From the human T2T-CHM13v2.0 reference genome, Homo sapiens: 64,000 bases of DNA. The DNA lies in assembly GCF_009914755.1 (NCBI RefSeq), contig NC_060935.1; one strand, 5' to 3'. The position numbers and the translations under genes are program-made. The notes under the pieces were generated by a model that worked only from the letters and a program-made list of their open reading frames with translations, made no database searches and was not told the origin of the DNA. How positions within the stretch are numbered: the stretch's first letter is position 1; each line of letters begins with the position of its first letter. Of this stretch, positions 39,186-60,747 are shown piece by piece.

Positions 39186-41412
39186 GTATATACTCATAAT
39201 CTCTAAAGGAAAAACACAAGTAGCAGGAAAAATCATATTTGTCCTCAAAATGACTATTATTGTAGTAGGTGGGCTTCATGCTCCAGAGGTTTGGGCACTA
39301 ATATTAGATGAGAATGAATTTGTTATTATTGTGCTCCTCATTCGTGCTAGACACTGCTATGGTAACTGGGGTTACAGAGGTGAGTAAGAAAGGCACACCC
39401 TCTGCATCTTGGAGATACCAGTGAGGATGGCCAAGAAACAACAAGCAAACATAGAAAGAAGCAAATTTAAGTTATAAGTGCCATCACGGAAACAAGCAAG
39501 AGATGAAAATAGAAAATGTGTGTGTTTGTGTGTGTGTGTGTGTTCGTGTGTACTGGTGAGGATGAAGAGTTTGGGAACATCCTGCTTTATTAAAAAGAAG
39601 CATGAGATTCAGAGTAAAAAAAAAAAAAGTAGACAAAAATTCAGAAAAAAAAGGGATGGCAGTGTAGTCTGGCCATTGATTTACCCGGCAGTGGAAAGTA
39701 GAAAAGAATAATATGAATGGGTCTGGAGACACTCTTTACCTTAGACACCAGCCACTTTGAGGGAGGAAGTATATGAGTAAGAACAGGATGGCAATTTTGC
39801 TAATATACTACATGTATGATAAGTTTTAGATTGCTGTTAAATGTTGTTTGGCTAGAGAAACCCAGGATTAATAGAACCATGCTTTACAAATCATCTATTT
39901 CCCACAAGGCTTCCAAGGCAATAATATACTCAAGGAACAAGGACAAATGAGAAATGAAAGTTCCACTTTAATTTTAGTTGGGGCAGTGCCTGTAACTGCC
40001 AATTAAATGTTTTGAAAAATCTGGATTCAAGTACAATATGTAAATTTGGACTCAACGTCCCGAAGAAAGGACTTCAGCCTCAAAGTCCAAGTCTTACCAC
40101 TAACAGGCTGCCAAGTTCAAAGTGATTAGGGTTTCTGACCATCAGAGTACTAATACAAGGCAACTAAGAATGCTAGAATAATGGGTTTCCTTGCAGTATG
40201 GAGAGAAGGGACCACCATATGCATATAGGTAAACTCACACTTTGTAAATGTGACTCATTCACTGGGCATTCTGAAATCTGAACAAACAGTTTAATATCTG
40301 CTCTTGGTGAAGTTTTAGGTTGAACTGAGATATTAAAAGGATTTTCACAGTCAAATAATGAGGAAATCATAATTCATGTCAGTCAGAGAGAGAAAATGAC
40401 CCCAAACTTGAAGACTGTATTCCAATATACCTAGAAAATGAGGTACTTTGTTAAAATAAGGTATAATAGGATAAGAAGCTGAAAATAGAACTTAAGGCCA
40501 TACTACTTTAAAAAAACAGGCAAAAAAACAGCCTCTTATTTTTATGCTTTGAGCAGTCATTTTAAACCCAGATAGTTACCGAATCTGGGTTTAGAAAGAT
40601 ATATTCTGGGGGCTATGTGTGAAAGAGGTGGTGCAGAGGAAAGAAACTCCTAGCAGGGATGGTAGTAAGCATGCAGTCACTACTTACCAAACACAAGATG
40701 ATCATTTTTATTCATATTACTAGAAAAGTGACTAAAAATTTTTTTCCATCATGTAAGAAAATATGGTGAATCATGACCATTATTTTCAAAATATATCACG
40801 CAATCATAGACTTTTCAGGAGCAATACCTCCTATTACAGTTCCTAGGTAGAAGACAGGGGAGAGGAGGTTTGCAAGATGGACAAAGTTGACAAGTATTTT
40901 CATGGCACATATAATTTTCTCAAATATGGAAAACATGATGTTTGTATGGAATGCTAAAATATGGATAAGTATAGATAAGAAATATTGCCCCATATTTTCC
41001 CTCATTTTAATAACCATGGTCAATATTTTAGGGCATATTCCTATGTTTTCTGTGGAATTGTTTTATAACCACTTTCTCCAAAATTGTCTTATGTTGCATT
41101 TAGTGTCCTCAGATAATATTGTTTCTAATCATGGTGGGATTACACACAAATTATATAAATTACATACAACAGACAGAAAAATTGTTTTTTTCTTGTTTTT
41201 TTGTTTTATTATACTTTAAGTTTTAGGGTACATGTGCACATTGTGCCGGTTCGTTACATACGTATACATGTGCCATGCTGGTGCGCTGCACCCACTAACT
41301 CGTCATCTAGCATTAGATATATCTCCCAATGCTATCCCTCCCCCCTCGCCCCACCCCACCACAGTCCCCAGAGTGTGATATTCCCCTTCCTGTGTCCATG
41401 TGATCTCATTGT

Positions 41413-44400
41413 TCAATTCCAACCTATGAGTGAGAATATGCGGTGTTTGGTTTTTTGTTCTTGCGATAGTTTACTGAGAATGATGATTTCCAATTTCATC
41501 CATGTCCCTACAAAGGACATGAACTCATCATTTTTTATGGCTGCATAGTATGCCATGGTGTATATGTGCCACATTTTCTTAATCCAGTCTATCATTATTG
41601 GACATTTGGGTTGGTTCCAAGTCTTTGCTATTGTGAACAATGCCGCAATAAACATACGTGTGCATGTGTCTTTATAGCAGCATGATTTATAGTCCTTTGG
41701 GTATATACCCAGTAATGGGATGGCTGGGTCAAATGGTATTTCTAGTTCTAGATCCCTGAGGAATCGCCACGCTGACTTCCACAATGGTTGAACTAGTTTA
41801 CAGTCCCACCAACAGTGTCAAAGTGTTCCTATTTCTCCACATCCTCTCCAGCGCCTGTTGTTTCCTGACTTTTTAATGATTGCCATTCTAACTGGTGTGA
41901 GATGGTATCTCATTGTGGTTTGGATTTGCATTTGTCTGATGGCCAGTGATGATGAGCATTTTTTCATGTGTTTTTTGGCTGCATAAATGTCTTCTTTTGA
42001 GAAGTGTCTGTTCATGTCCTTCGCCCACTTTTTGACAGGGTTGTTTGTTTTCTTCTTGTAAATTTGTTTGAGTTCATTGTAGATTCTGGATATTAGCCCT
42101 TTGTCAGATGAGTAGGTTGTGAAAATTTTCTCCCATGTTGTAGGTTGCCTGTTCACTCTGATGGTAGTTTCTTTTGCTGTGCAGAAGCTCTTTAGTTTAA
42201 TTAGATCCCATTTGTCAATTTTGGCTTTGGTTGCCATTGCTTTTGGTGTTTTAGACATGAAGTCCTTGCCCATGCCTATGTCCTGAATGGTAATGCCTAG
42301 GTTTTCTTCTAGGGTTTTTATGGTTTTAGGTTGAACGTTTAAGTCTTTAATCCATCTTGAATTGATTTTTGTATAAGGTGTAAGGAAGGGATCCAGTTTC
42401 AGCTTTCTACATATGGCTAGCCACTTTTCCCAGCACAATTTATTAAATAGGGAATCCTTTCCCCATTGCTCGTTTTCCTCAGTTTTATCAAAGATCAGAT
42501 AGTTGTAGATATGTGGCATTATTTCTGAGGGCTCTATTCTGTTCCATTGATCTATATCTCTGTTTTGGTACCAGTACCATGCTGTTTTGTTTACTGTAGC
42601 CTTGTAGTATAGTTTGAAGTCAGGTAGTGTGATGCCTCCAGCTTTGTTCTTTTGGCTTAGGATTGACTTGGCAATGTGGGCTCTTTTTGGGTTCCATATG
42701 AACTTTAAAGCAGTTTTTTCCAATTCTGTGAAGAAAGGCAGTGGTAGCTTGATGGGGATGGCATTGAATCTGTAAATTACCTTGGGCAGTATGGCCATTT
42801 TCACGATATTGATTCTTCCTACCCATGAGCGTGGAATGCTCTTCCATTTGTTTGTATCCTCTTCTATTTCCTTGAGCAGTGGTTTGTAGTTCTCCTTGAA
42901 GAGGTCCTTCACATCCCTTGTAAGTTGGATTCCTAGGTATTTTATTCTCTTTGAAGCAATTGTGAATGGGAGTTCACTCATGATTTGGCTCTCTGTTTGT
43001 CTGTTGTTGGTGTGTAAGAATGCTTGTGATTTTGGTACATTGATTTTTATCCTGAGACTTTGATAAAGTTGCCTATCAGCTTAAGGAGATTTTGGGCTGA
43101 GACAATGGGGTTTTCTAGATACACAATCATGTCGTCTGCAAACAGGGACAATTTGATTTCCTCTTTTCCTAATTGAATACCTTTTATTTCCTTCTCCTGC
43201 CTAATTGCCCTGGCCAGAACTTCCAACACTATGTTGAATAGGAGTGGTGAGAGAGGGCATCCCTGTCTTGTGCCAGTTTTCAAAGGGAATGCTTCCAGTT
43301 TTTGCCCATTCAGTATGATATTGGCTGTGGGTTTGTCATAGATAGCTCTTATTATTTTGAAATACGTCCCATCAATACCTAATCTATTGAGAGTTTTTAG
43401 CATGAAGGGTTGTTGAATTTTGTCAAAGGCTTTTTCTGCATCTATTGAGATTATCATGTGGTTTTTGTCTTTGGCTCTGTTTATATGCTGGATTACATTT
43501 ATTGATTCACATACATTGAACCAGCCTTGCATCCCAGGGATGAAGCCCACTTGATCATGGTGGATAAGCTTTTTGATGTGCTGCTGGATTTGTTTTGCCA
43601 GTATTTTATTGAGGATTTTTGCATCAATGTTCATCAAGGATATTGGTCTAAAATTCTCTTTTCTGGTTGTGTCTCTGCCCGGCTTTGGTATCAGAATGAT
43701 GCTGGCCTCATAAAATGAGTTAGGGAGGATTCCTTCTTTTTCTATTGATTGGAATAGTTTCAGAAGGAATGGTACCAGTTCCTCCTTGTACCTCTGGTAG
43801 AATTCGGCTGTGAATCCATCTGGTCCTGGACTCTTTTTGGTTGGTAAACTATTGATTATTGCCACAATTTCAGATCCTGAAATTCAGGTCTATTCAGAGA
43901 TTCAACTTCTTCCTGGTTTAGTCTTGGGAGGGTTTATGTGTCGAGGAATTTATCCATTTCTTCTAGATTTTCTAGTTTATTTGCGTAGAGGTGTTTGTAG
44001 TACTGTCTGATGGTAGTTTGTATTTCTGTGGGATCGGTGGTGATATCCCCTTTACCGTTTTTTATTGCGTCTATTTGATTCTTCTCTCTTTTTTTCTTTA
44101 TTAGTCTTGCTAGCGGTCTATCAATTTTGTTGATCCTTTCAAAAAACCAGCTCCTGGATTCATTACTTTTTTGAAGGGTTTTTTGTGTCTCTATTTCCTT
44201 CAGTTCTGCTCTGATTTTAGTTATTTCTTGCCTTCTGCTAGCTTTTGAATGTGTTTGCTCTTGCTTTTCTAGTTCTTTTAATTGTGATGTTAGGGAGTCA
44301 ATTTTAGATCTTTCCTGCTGTCTCTTGTGGGCATTTAGTGCTATAAATTTCCCTCTACACACTGCTTTGAATGCGTCCCAGAGATTCTGGTATGTTGTGT

Positions 44401-60300: not shown

Positions 60301-60635
60301 ATGAGTTCATGTCCTTTGTAGGGACATGGATGAAATTGGAAATCATCATTCTCAGTAAACTATCGCAAGAACAAAAAATCAAACACCGCATATTCTCACT
60401 CATAGGTGGGAACTGATCAATGAGATCACATGGACACAGGAAGGGGAATATCACACTCTGGAGACTGTGGTGGGGTGGGGCGAGGGGGGAGGGATAGCAT
60501 TGGGAGATATACCTAATGCTAGATGACGAGTTAGTGGGTGCAGCGCACCAGCATGGCACATGTATACGTATGTAACGAACCGGCACAATGTGCACATGTA
60601 CCCTAAAACTTAAAGTATAATAAAAAAAAAAGAAA
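57329..60635 (+). mobile_element. L1PA2 with intact 5' and 3' ends but a ~2.73-kb internal deletion; right arm of the inverted pair
   Basis: GGGAGGAGCCAAGATGGCCGAATAGG start. After ~185 nt the 5'UTR (GCAGGGCGAGG) joins ORF2 (AAAGATCCAAAATTGAC). ORF2 remainder, 3'UTR and A tail follow. Confidence 0.97.
57512..60416 (+). pseudogene. L1 ORF2 remnant lacking the endonuclease domain
   Basis: Stops at 57892-57894, 59256-59258 and 60009-60011; +2 frameshift near 57945. RT domain open in 57963-59258. Confidence 0.95.
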
Positions 60636-60747
60636 AAAGAAAATTATATTCACCCAAACCTTTTAAGGATGAATTAAAGCTTATAAGGTGGAAGGGAAAG
60701 GAAAGTGCCTCCTTTTATCGGAAAACTTTGTGAGTTCAGGCTAATTC

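What the first reader, a model, noticed from the sequence alone, without database searches (positions are those of the whole stretch)
41176..60647. Two inverted L1PA2 elements with swapped target-site duplications: the ~10-kb segment between them has been inverted
Seen: neither L1 is bracketed by its own TSD. The 14-mer outside the left element's tail (GAAAAATTGTTTTT, 41176-41189) is the exact reverse complement of the 14-mer before the right element's 5' end (AAAAACAATTTTTC, 57314-57327, preceded by TTT to give a canonical TT/AAAA site). The 12-mer beyond the left element's 5' end (ATAATTTTCTTT, 47232-47243) is the exact reverse complement of the 12-mer after the right element's tail (AAAGAAAATTAT, 60636-60647). 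Established: target-primed reverse transcription leaves the same TSD on both sides of one insertion, and recombination between inverted copies exchanges them. Inference: both elements are chimeras. The spacer 47230-57328 and both L1 5' ends are flipped relative to the pre-insertion state, in which the deleted 5' end belonged on the left and the full-length 5' end on the right. With 3.1-kb near-identical arms the inversion could be polymorphic or recurrent. An alternative is two concurrent insertions whose 5' ends were joined to each other's target site.
Basis: partly seen in the sequence, partly recalled or inferred. Interest (0 to 1): 0.88.

Follow-up and report, generated by a model that had tools for sequence, protein, structure and literature searches.

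The report
Inversion between two inverted L1 elements
Two oppositely oriented L1 retrotransposons in a human chromosome 11 pseudogene region carry each other's insertion-site duplications, and comparison with an L1-free sister copy of the region shows that the 10 kb between them has been flipped, an ordinary and well-described kind of rearrangement.

Summary
The 14-mer at 41176-41189 is the reverse complement of 57314-57327, and the 12-mer at 47232-47243 is the reverse complement of 60636-60647, each abutting an L1 end.

This window is a segmental duplicate of chr11:88.81-88.83 Mb. That paralog lacks both L1s and holds each target site once. It is collinear with both flanks on one strand and with the 10.1-kb spacer on the other.

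This is an L1-L1 recombination-mediated inversion, a published class diagnosed by the same TSD test (PMC2603318).

- **Most likely mechanism:** two separate insertions, then non-allelic homologous recombination in the 3.1-kb arms (about 0.7).
- **Rival:** two synchronous insertions that swapped ends, so far described in tumours (about 0.15). It cannot be excluded without ape genomes.

New here: the arms have been homogenised by gene conversion. They share ORF2-killing lesions and an 842-nt stretch without differences, while the 5' ends diverged freely.

The L1PA2 label, chimerism and polymorphism remain untested. Interest is low to moderate.

The parts
41176..41189 (-). Target-site duplication 1, the copy next to the poly(A) end of the left L1
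   Evidence: Exact reverse complement of 57314-57327 (I17). Present once in the paralog, with one extra A.
41190..47231 (-). Left L1, full length (6,042 nt), with a short A-rich tail at 41190-41210. ORF1 and ORF2 are broken.
   Evidence: The longest ATG ORFs are 435, 387, 195 and 136 aa. Absent from the paralog.
47232..47243 (-). Target-site duplication 2, the copy at the 5' end of the left L1 (possibly 47230-47243, 14 nt)
   Evidence: Exact reverse complement of 60636-60647. The paralog has one copy, followed by CT.
47244..57313 (.). Unique 10.1-kb spacer, inverted relative to the ancestral arrangement
   Evidence: Window 47230-57326 matches the paralog at 88817100-88827168 on the plus strand at 96.7% in a single 10,103-column alignment. 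Both flanks match on the minus strand.
57314..57327 (+). Target-site duplication 1, the copy at the 5' end of the right L1, preceded by TTT (a TTT/AAAAA endonuclease-type site)
57328..60635 (+). Right L1 (3,308 nt): the 5' ~187 nt joined to the 3' 3.1 kb
   Evidence: ORF2 is in pieces. Absent from the paralog.
57512..57515 (+). Internal deletion junction of the right L1 (L1 positions 188-2914 missing), with AGG microhomology
   Evidence: Comparison with both sides in the full-length left copy.
60636..60647 (+). Target-site duplication 2, the copy after the poly(A) tail of the right L1 (possibly to 60649)
41209..44312 (-). Left 3.1-kb homology arm (3' half of ORF2 plus the 3' UTR)
   Evidence: 98.81% identical to 57516-60620 over 3,105 nt. 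Also (I1, I2).
57516..60620 (+). Right 3.1-kb homology arm
   Evidence: Closest relative of the left arm among 46 L1 copies: clade support 100/100, stem 0.019, tips 0.003 and 0.006.
57774..58615 (+). 842-nt stretch with no difference between the arms (left counterpart 43213-44054): a candidate recent gene-conversion or crossover tract
   Evidence: The gap between flanking differences is 843 nt. It was reached in 54 of 200,000 random placements of the 37 differences. About 13.8 differences would be expected in the stretch.
47044..47231 (-). 5' 188 nt of the left L1, which has diverged from the right copy (57328-57515)
   Evidence: 172 of 188 positions are identical, 91.5%. The partner is not among the 40 best genome matches in either direction.

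Best explanation
This is an L1-L1 recombination-mediated inversion inside the GRM5P1 segmental duplication.

1. After the duplication, two L1s of similar age inserted head to head about 10 kb apart by target-primed reverse transcription. One landed at a TTT/AAAAACAATTTTTC site. The other landed at a ...TTTAC/AAAGAAAATTAT(CT) site. Each made its own target-site duplication.
2. Non-allelic homologous recombination between the inverted copies then flipped everything between the crossover points. The crossover most probably lay in the 3.1-kb arms they share. The flipped part is the 10.1-kb spacer plus both L1 5' portions.
3. Each element now carries one duplication from each site.
4. The arms have also exchanged sequence without crossover (gene conversion), repeatedly or over long tracts, so they now evolve partly in concert. 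The short 5' homology has not.

Shown: the swapped duplications, the inverted orientation relative to an L1-free paralog, the single-copy target sites there, and the signs of arm homogenisation. Inferred: the order of events (insertions first, inversion later), the place of the crossover, and chimerism.
For: **Swapped TSDs.** They sit exactly at the four junctions. Joint chance is about 6e-8.

**The paralog.** Paralog C11:88813753-88834282 is one uninterrupted stretch without either L1.
- Window 34041-41189 matches it on the minus strand at 96.4%.
- Window 47230-57326 matches it on the plus strand at 96.7%.
- Window 60636-63992 matches it on the minus strand at 95.4%.
- The matches overlap by 13 and 14 nt exactly at the two target sites, which the paralog holds once each.
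- No spacer sequence is lost or gained at the breakpoints: 10,097 nt here against 10,069 nt in the paralog.

**The arms recombine.**
- The arms are 98.8% identical to each other but at most 97.0% identical to 29 other L1 copies.
- They form a 100/100 clade with a stem of 0.019 and tips of 0.003 and 0.006. Single copies nearby in the tree have tips of 0.013-0.020.
- They share three ORF2-killing lesions: TAC>TAA at 57892-57894 (0 of 29 other copies), a +TG frameshift at 57942-57943 (0 of 29), and TTA>TGA at 60009-60011 (1 of 29).
- 40 shared variants are absent from all 29 young copies. Three further copies, picked as the best short-window matches, carry only 3, 4 and 5 of them.
- An 842-nt stretch has no difference between the arms (54 of 200,000 simulations).
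- The 5' 188 nt are only 91.5% identical. Unshared changes sit at 9 of 32 CpG positions there, against 3 of 56 in the arms (Fisher p = 0.007).
- Neither 5' end is among the other's 40 best genome matches.

**Published precedent.**
- Lee et al. 2008 found 21 L1-mediated inversions among 49 retrotransposon recombination-mediated inversions between human and chimpanzee. They used mismatched TSDs to call the derived state (PMC2603318, Results and Methods sections read).
- A human panel had 22 polymorphic balanced inversions flanked by L1 pairs. The median L1-pair identity was 97.2% and the median inversion size 5.6 kb (bioRxiv 10.1101/2021.12.20.472354, passages).
Against: - No allele or species with both L1s present and the spacer uninverted was seen, because no other human haplotype and no ape genome could be searched. 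The order insertions-then-inversion is therefore not shown.
- No chimeric signature was found. The left-private and right-private differences along the arms show no significant change-point. The best split had p = 0.055, and 1,533 of 5,000 permutations matched or beat it.
- The two L1s look equally old: 19 against 17 private changes in the arms, and 8 against 7 in the 5' 188 nt, plus one three-way site. The synchronous model requires this; the recombination model merely allows it.
- Some variants first counted as private to the pair do occur in other copies. Two chr4 copies score above the left arm in a 91-nt test window. A neighbouring L1 46 kb away shares 5 of the 40. Part of the shared stem is therefore source-lineage variation and not conversion.
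- The genome searches score only 40 of hundreds to thousands of candidates, so 'private' is a sampling statement.
- The outgroup is a paralog and not an ortholog.
Confidence: 0.72

Rival explanations
1. Synchronous L1-mediated reciprocal inversion. Two L1 RNPs nicked the two sites at about the same time. Both sites became staggered double-strand breaks, and the freed 10-kb fragment was recaptured in reverse. Each cDNA then used the other site's overhang for second-strand synthesis. Insertions and inversion are one event, and neither L1 is a chimera.
For: - The layout is exactly what this model gives. [quoted passage not shown] - The mechanism is described for reciprocal translocations and inversions in tumours with high L1 activity (bioRxiv 10.1101/2024.08.27.596794, passages).
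- Both L1s reach the 5' end of the L1 sequence.
- They look equally old: 19 against 17 private changes in the arms, and 8 against 7 in the 5' ends.
- No chimeric change-point was found.
Against: - In what I read, the mechanism is documented only somatically in tumours. There the inversions are said to be 'not very frequent'.
- In the passages I read, recombination between pre-existing L1 pairs is the only mechanism given for L1-flanked balanced inversions in the germline. No search here asked specifically for a germline case of the synchronous mechanism.
- The arms demonstrably recombine with each other, so the substrate for the recombination model is active.
- If both cDNAs came from one source, their 5' ends should be each other's nearest relatives. 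They are not. This test is weak, because only 2-3 source-private variants would be expected in 188 nt.
Confidence: 0.15
2. Recombination-mediated inversion as in the best explanation, but with the crossover in the 187-nt 5' homology instead of the 3.1-kb arms. Before the inversion, the full-length element then sat at site 1 (left) and the internally deleted one at site 2 (right). This is the opposite of the reader's reconstruction.
For: The two L1s share homology in two separate blocks (I4). A crossover in either block gives the same present layout.
Against: The 5' block is about 16 times shorter than the arms. It is now only 91.5% identical and shows no sign of exchange. The arms show exchange.
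Confidence: 0.05
3. Assembly error, or a rearrangement private to the CHM13 cell line. The spacer was flipped between the near-identical arms, and the true germline arrangement is uninverted with matching TSDs.
For: A mis-join inside the arms would produce exactly this TSD swap. Only one assembly was available.
Against: The arms differ at 37 positions in 3.1 kb. They are 3.3 and 6.0 kb long, shorter than the long reads that I recall were used for this assembly. That point is recall and was not checked with reads.
Confidence: 0.03

Closest known systems
Retrotransposon recombination-mediated inversion, L1-RMI (Lee et al. 2008, PMC2603318)
   Same: - Two L1s in opposite orientation span the two breakpoints.
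- The TSDs of each element do not match each other but match crosswise.
- The event is balanced.
- The size is in range. The mean human-specific L1-RMI is 14.3 kb. Here the spacer is 10.1 kb and the flipped segment 13-19 kb.
   Different: The ancestral state is inferred here from a paralog inside the same genome and not from chimpanzee, orangutan or macaque.
Polymorphic human inversions mediated by inverted L1 pairs, e.g. HsInv0341 (L1PA3 repeats of 6.2/6.2 kb, 20.8-kb inversion; Aguado et al. 2014, PMC3961182)
   Same: The architecture and scale are the same. L1-pair identity here (98.8%) is within the range reported for 22 L1-flanked polymorphic inversions, where the median is 97.2%.
   Different: Polymorphism is untested here. 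The three chr11 entries seen in Aguado's tables are at 0.30, 70.95 and 116.5 Mb (hg18), not near 49-50 Mb (passages only).
Synchronous L1 insertions generating reciprocal inversions (bioRxiv 10.1101/2024.08.27.596794)
   Same: An L1 with a poly(A) tail and an endonuclease motif sits at each junction, and the TSD copies are split between junctions.
   Different: The described cases are somatic, in tumours, and at megabase scale. Several involve twin priming within the bridges. This locus is in an assembled germline-derived genome, spans 10 kb, and has old, decayed L1s.
Twin priming (Ostertag and Kazazian 2001; seen only as a reference)
   Same: An inversion associated with L1 integration.
   Different: Twin priming inverts the 5' part of one L1 inside a single TSD pair. 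Here 10 kb of unique DNA lies between two L1s, and there are two TSD pairs.
Arm-to-arm gene conversion in palindromes and inverted segmental duplications (recalled general knowledge, not read here)
   Same: The inverted arms are more alike than their age allows, share private and inactivating mutations, and contain an identical tract.
   Different: The arms are two independent retrotransposon insertions and not a duplicated segment. Homogenisation stops at the internal deletion of one copy.

Membership tests
L1 recombination-mediated inversion (L1-RMI) | Two L1 elements in opposite orientation span the two breakpoints | tested here: met
   Left L1 on the minus strand at 41190-47231, right L1 on the plus strand at 57328-60635, with 3.1 kb of inverted homology.
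L1 recombination-mediated inversion (L1-RMI) | TSDs do not match within an element but match across the two elements | tested here: met
   14 of 14 and 12 of 12 exact crosswise matches, and no own-flank direct repeat. Joint chance is about 6e-8.
L1 recombination-mediated inversion (L1-RMI) | The intervening segment is inverted relative to the ancestral arrangement, with empty target sites in the outgroup | tested here: met
   The L1-free paralog at C11:88.81-88.83 Mb has the flanks on one strand and the spacer on the other, and single-copy target sites. The outgroup is a paralog, not an ortholog.
L1 recombination-mediated inversion (L1-RMI) | A pre-inversion state exists or existed: both L1s present, each with its own TSDs | not testable with these tools
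   No ape genome and no second human haplotype can be searched. Lee et al. Table S1 was closed.
L1 recombination-mediated inversion (L1-RMI) | The flanking elements are chimeras with a definable crossover window | tested here: inconclusive
   No significant change-point in left-private against right-private differences (1,533 of 5,000 permutations). Gene conversion has blurred the arms. An 842-nt identical tract is a candidate site only.
Synchronous L1-mediated reciprocal inversion | [quoted passage not shown] | tested here: met
   Site 1 is TTT/AAAAA. Site 2 is TTTAC/AAAG, which is less canonical.
Synchronous L1-mediated reciprocal inversion | The two insertions are of the same age, and no intermediate allele exists | tested here: inconclusive
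   Private changes are balanced: 19 against 17 in the arms, and 8 against 7 in the 5' ends. Conversion confounds the arm counts. Whether intermediates exist is not testable here.
Twin priming | The inverted 5' L1 segment abuts the 3' segment of the same insertion inside one TSD pair | tested here: not met
   10.1 kb of unique, paralog-matching DNA separates the L1s, and there are two distinct TSD pairs.
   No RepeatMasker or Dfam tool was available. Indirect signs:
- The pair carries the state that 8 of 29 young copies have at 60528-60529.
- In the first 1,975 nt, 16 of 46 shared differences are states seen in at least 3 of 15 older copies.
- The pair branches outside the clade that holds 28 of the 29 young copies.

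I would say only L1PA2/L1PA3 grade.

The most novel reading that the evidence does not exclude
The two L1s and the inversion arose in a single germline event. Two synchronous target-primed reverse transcription reactions 10 kb apart exchanged their second-strand primers, as recently described in tumours. This locus would then be an evolutionary, fixed or segregating, germline example of retrotransposition-driven reciprocal inversion. The later arm-to-arm gene conversion would be a separate overlay.
Probability: 0.15. Interest if true: 0.65.

Novelty: new member of a known kind. Interest (0 to 1): 0.3.

Why it matters
The locus is a clean, fully resolved example of how inverted L1 pairs restructure the genome. 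Because it lies in a segmental duplication, the parent copy acts as a built-in outgroup that shows both empty target sites and the original orientation.

It also shows two independent L1 insertions behaving like a small palindrome. They share inactivating mutations and an identical tract, and this homogenisation stops where one copy carries an internal deletion.

Practical consequences:
- L1 ages or subfamily calls made from the arms would be misleading.
- The locus is a plausible site of inversion polymorphism or toggling inside the GRM5P1 transcribed pseudogene.
- No gene with a known function is affected. The hub's table lists only that pseudogene here, with none of its exons in the window.

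Tried and rejected
**Ideas tested and dropped**
- Chimerism test. A change-point scan of left-private against right-private differences along the arms was not significant.
- 'Both L1s come from one unusual source lineage' as the reason for arm similarity.
  - Four short test windows were searched in the whole genome. In three of them no other scored copy matched as well as the partner arm. In the fourth, two chr4 copies did.
  - Fetching those two chr4 copies and a neighbouring L1 showed that they carry only 3, 4 and 5 of the 40 variants absent from all 29 young copies.
  - The shared stop codons and frameshift would also require trans-mobilisation of a dead element, twice.
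  - The idea is rejected as the main cause, but part of the shared stem is lineage variation.
- DNA-level inverted duplication of one L1. Rejected, because two different target sites are each duplicated and the two poly(A) tails differ.
- Splicing as the origin of the internal deletion. The donor side reads CA and not GT, and the junction has AGG microhomology.

**Literature look-ups for this locus**
- 'GRM5P1' found 2 papers, unrelated by title and abstract.
- Coordinate-style names chr11-495 to chr11-499 and '11p11.12 inversion' found 0 papers.
- The chr11 rows seen in Aguado 2014 do not match this locus.
- Giner-Delgado 2019 and bioRxiv 2025.05.27.656315 do not mention chr11 in their main text.
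- The Porubsky preprint describes a recurrent '11p11' inversion without coordinates in its main text. It holds 389 SNPs, so it is probably much larger than this one. Identity is unresolved.
- The Cell version of that preprint was not held.

Lee et al. Table S1 and the inversion call sets may list this locus.
- timed out and was rerun with faster alignment settings.

Full report
**1. The observation.** I read the four junctions and checked them by script.
- GAAAAATTGTTTTT (41176-41189) lies just outside the T-rich tail of a minus-strand L1. It is the exact reverse complement of AAAAACAATTTTTC (57314-57327), which lies just before the 5' end of a plus-strand L1 and is preceded by TTT.
- ATAATTTTCTTT (47232-47243) lies beyond the 5' end of the left L1. 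It is the exact reverse complement of AAAGAAAATTAT (60636-60647), which follows the right L1's tail.
- Neither element has a direct repeat of its own flank.
- With both L1s masked, exact inverted 14-mers and 12-mers occur in this window at 1.5e-6 and 2.8e-6 per ordered position pair. With +-5 nt of slack at each junction the joint chance is about 6e-8. This is conservative, because inverted Alus inflate the rate.

**2. Anatomy.**
- The left L1 (41190-47231) is 6,042 nt, full length. Its longest ATG ORFs are 435, 387, 195 and 136 aa, so both ORFs are broken.
- The right L1 (57328-60635) is 3,308 nt. Its first ~187 nt are joined to the last 3.1 kb. L1 positions 188-2914 of the left copy are missing, and the junction has AGG microhomology and no splice-site dinucleotides. 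Its ORF2 is also in pieces.
- Homology between the two lies in two blocks. The 3.1-kb arm aligns over 3,132 nt at 98.69% and over 3,105 nt at 98.81%. The other block is the 188-nt 5' end.

**3. The decisive test.**
- A 490-nt piece of the left flank has exactly one other match in the genome: C11:88827156-88827645, minus strand, 96%. I take this to be the GRM5 parent locus of the GRM5P1 duplication that the hub annotation names. That assignment rests on the gene name and my recall of the map position, not on an annotation call.
- I fetched 30 kb there and aligned the window to it.

| Window | Paralog | Strand | Identity |
|---|---|---|---|
| 34041-41189 | 88834282-88827156 | minus | 96.4% |
| 47230-57326 | 88817100-88827168 | plus | 96.7% |
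| 60636-63992 | 88817113-88813753 | minus | 95.4% |

- The paralog is thus one uninterrupted stretch with neither L1. The three window pieces tile it, with overlaps of 13 and 14 nt that are the two target sites.
- Printed out, the paralog reads ...ACAGACA GAAAAAATTGTTTTT AAAGCTACCATTTATGTGC... at site 1. At site 2 it reads ...CATGTTTTCTCCTTTAC AAAGAAAATTAT CTTCACCAAAACC...
- The CT after the second site also follows the copy at the left L1's 5' end. That TSD may therefore be 14 nt, with one later change in the copy at 60636-60649.
- The spacer is 10,097 nt here and 10,069 nt in the paralog, in a single alignment, so the inversion is balanced.
- The reverse reading, in which the window's layout is ancestral, would need two precise L1 excisions and an exact re-inversion in the parent. 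I reject it.

**4. What kind of thing it is.**
- Lee et al. 2008 (PMC2603318; abstract, first part of Results and Methods section 19 read) define retrotransposon recombination-mediated inversion. They found 49 such loci between human and chimpanzee, 21 of them L1-mediated. They use exactly this logic: after recombination the flanking elements are chimeric and their TSDs no longer match.
- A human diversity panel reported 22 polymorphic balanced inversions flanked by L1 pairs, 21 of them above 90% identity, with a median of 97.2% (bioRxiv 10.1101/2021.12.20.472354, passages).
- HsInv0341 is a 20.8-kb polymorphic inversion between 6.2-kb L1PA3 repeats (PMC3961182, table passages).
- This locus fits that class in every feature I could test.

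**5. The arms have been homogenised.**
- *Comparison with 29 other copies.* I compared the arms with the 29 best-scoring other L1 copies in the genome (40 of 17,241 candidates were scored). The right arm differs from their majority at 71 positions that the left arm shares. There are 19 left-private, 17 right-private and 1 three-way differences.
- *Identity.* The arms are 98.81% identical to each other and 96.78-97.01% identical to the 29 copies.
- *Tree.* In a tree of 46 copies over the first 1,975 nt, the two arms form a clade with 100/100 support, a stem of 0.019 and tips of 0.003 and 0.006. Single copies at a similar depth have tips of 0.013-0.020.
- *Shared variants, first 1,975 nt.* There are 46 shared differences. 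Of these, 21 occur in none of 29 young and none of 15 older copies, 16 are states of older copies, and 9 are rare.
- *Shared variants, whole arm.* 40 shared variants are absent from all 29 young copies. Three further copies, chosen as the best short-window matches, carry 3, 4 and 5 of them.
- *Shared lesions.* The shared set includes three ORF2-killing lesions: TAC>TAA at 57892-57894 (0 of 29), a +TG frameshift at 57942-57943 (0 of 29), and TTA>TGA at 60009-60011 (1 of 29).
- *Identical tract.* The 37 unshared differences leave an 842-nt stretch (57774-58615) with none. A gap between differences this long (843 nt) arose in 54 of 200,000 random placements, and about 13.8 differences would be expected in the stretch.
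- *The 5' ends differ.* The 5' 188 nt are only 172 of 188 identical. Four of the 16 differences sit at the extreme 5' edge or at the deletion junction and may not be real substitutions.
- *CpG test.* Unshared changes sit at 9 of 32 CpG positions in the 5' ends, against 3 of 56 in the arms (Fisher p = 0.007). In that call the count of 12 'shared' non-CpG positions at the 5' end is an artefact of flank columns, and I do not use it.
- *Genome-wide.* Neither 5' end appears among the other's 40 best matches, whose non-self identities are 95-97% (1,804 and 2,666 candidates, 40 scored each).

The simplest reading is gene conversion between the inverted arms. Mutations that arose after insertion, including the stops, were copied across. 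At least one tract is recent. The short 5' block, cut off from the arm by the 2.7-kb deletion, evolved freely.

The alternative is that both L1s came from one already dead, heavily mutated source. That would need trans-mobilisation twice, and it does not explain the identical tract or the CpG contrast.

Caveats:
- In one of four short test windows, two chr4 copies matched better than the partner arm.
- A neighbouring L1 46 kb away (C11:49952400-49955650) shares 5 of the 40 variants plus the TGA. Part of the stem is therefore lineage variation.
- All 'private' counts rest on 32-47 sampled copies out of thousands.

**6. Mechanism and its rival.** Two models give the present layout.
- *Model A:* two separate insertions, then non-allelic homologous recombination.
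- *Model B:* two synchronous insertions whose cDNAs used each other's target-site overhangs. This is described in tumours as reciprocal translocations and inversions with TSD 'heteroduplication' (bioRxiv 10.1101/2024.08.27.596794, passages).
- I worked through the strand polarity. Both models predict the same junctions, so the sequence alone cannot separate them.
- *For A:* it is the mechanism the papers I read give for germline and evolutionary L1-flanked balanced inversions. The arms here visibly recombine.
- *For B:* the L1s look equally old (19 against 17, and 8 against 7 private changes). I found no chimeric change-point (1,533 of 5,000 permutations). Conversion would blur such a signal in any case.
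- I put A at about 0.72 and B at about 0.15. A variant of A with the crossover in the 5' block gets about 0.05, and an assembly or cell-line artefact about 0.03.
That is about 16 times the larger target, but it is not shown.

**7. What is not established.**
- *The L1PA2 label.* No classifier was available. The pair has the older state at 60528-60529 that 8 of 29 young copies show. It has 16 older-copy states in 1,975 nt. It branches outside the clade holding 28 of the 29 young copies. The 6,042-nt length fits the shorter 5' UTR form of L1PA3, L1PA2 and L1HS as I recall it. I would say only L1PA2/L1PA3 grade.
- *Age of the inversion.* If the 842-nt identical tract marks the crossover, the event is recent relative to the insertions. 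That link is speculation.
- *Polymorphism or recurrence.* It is plausible from arm length and identity, but untested.
- *Whether the locus is already catalogued.* My searches found nothing. The recurrent '11p11' inversion of the Porubsky preprint has no coordinates in its main text. With 389 SNPs inside it, it is probably a larger neighbour.

**8. Verdict.**
- The inversion is confirmed against a paralogous outgroup.
- The class is known. The added finding of concerted evolution of two independent L1 insertions is tidy but expected for long inverted repeats.
- Interest is 0.3. Novelty: a new member of a known kind.

Noticed in passing
window 33173-63992 (and, by the hub's table, beyond both ends): Outside the two L1s, this part of the window is a 95.4-96.7% copy, in reverse orientation, of C11:88813753-88835000. 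That region is presumably the GRM5 parent locus. Flank B (95.4%) is somewhat more diverged than flank A and the spacer (96.4% and 96.7%).
   Followed up: partly
G000:C11:49952400-49955650 (about 46 kb beyond the right L1, outside the window; locus L067): A third L1, on the minus strand, is the best non-self match to a 101-nt test window of the arms (97%). It shares 5 of the 40 rare arm variants plus the TTA>TGA stop. It may belong to the same source lineage or be a further conversion partner.
   Followed up: partly
window 52073-52411 and 54712-55050: An inverted pair of Alu-like repeats lies inside the inverted spacer, 77-82% complementary and 2.3-2.9 kb apart (I5-I7). The spacer aligns to the paralog without a large gap, so the pair predates the duplication.
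   Followed up: no
window 57229-57241 and 57313-57325: An exact 13-nt inverted repeat (AAAATTGTTTTTA / TAAAAACAATTTT), 71 nt apart, overlaps the first target site (I22). The L1 integrated at one arm of a small A/T-rich hairpin-capable motif. It may be chance in A/T-rich DNA.
   Followed up: no
window 33907-34040: About 135 nt are present here but absent from the paralog: the alignment breaks at 33906/34041 while the paralog coordinates overlap. The stretch lies within one that the hub lists as repeat-masked (33875-34054).
   Followed up: no
loci L039 (C22:12.5 Mb) and L040 (C14:9.8 Mb): Two L1 copies on different chromosomes are nearly identical: tips of 0 and 0.004 on a shared stem of 0.03. 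This is the pattern of an L1 carried inside a segmental duplication. It served as an informal picture of what DNA-level copying looks like.
   Followed up: no
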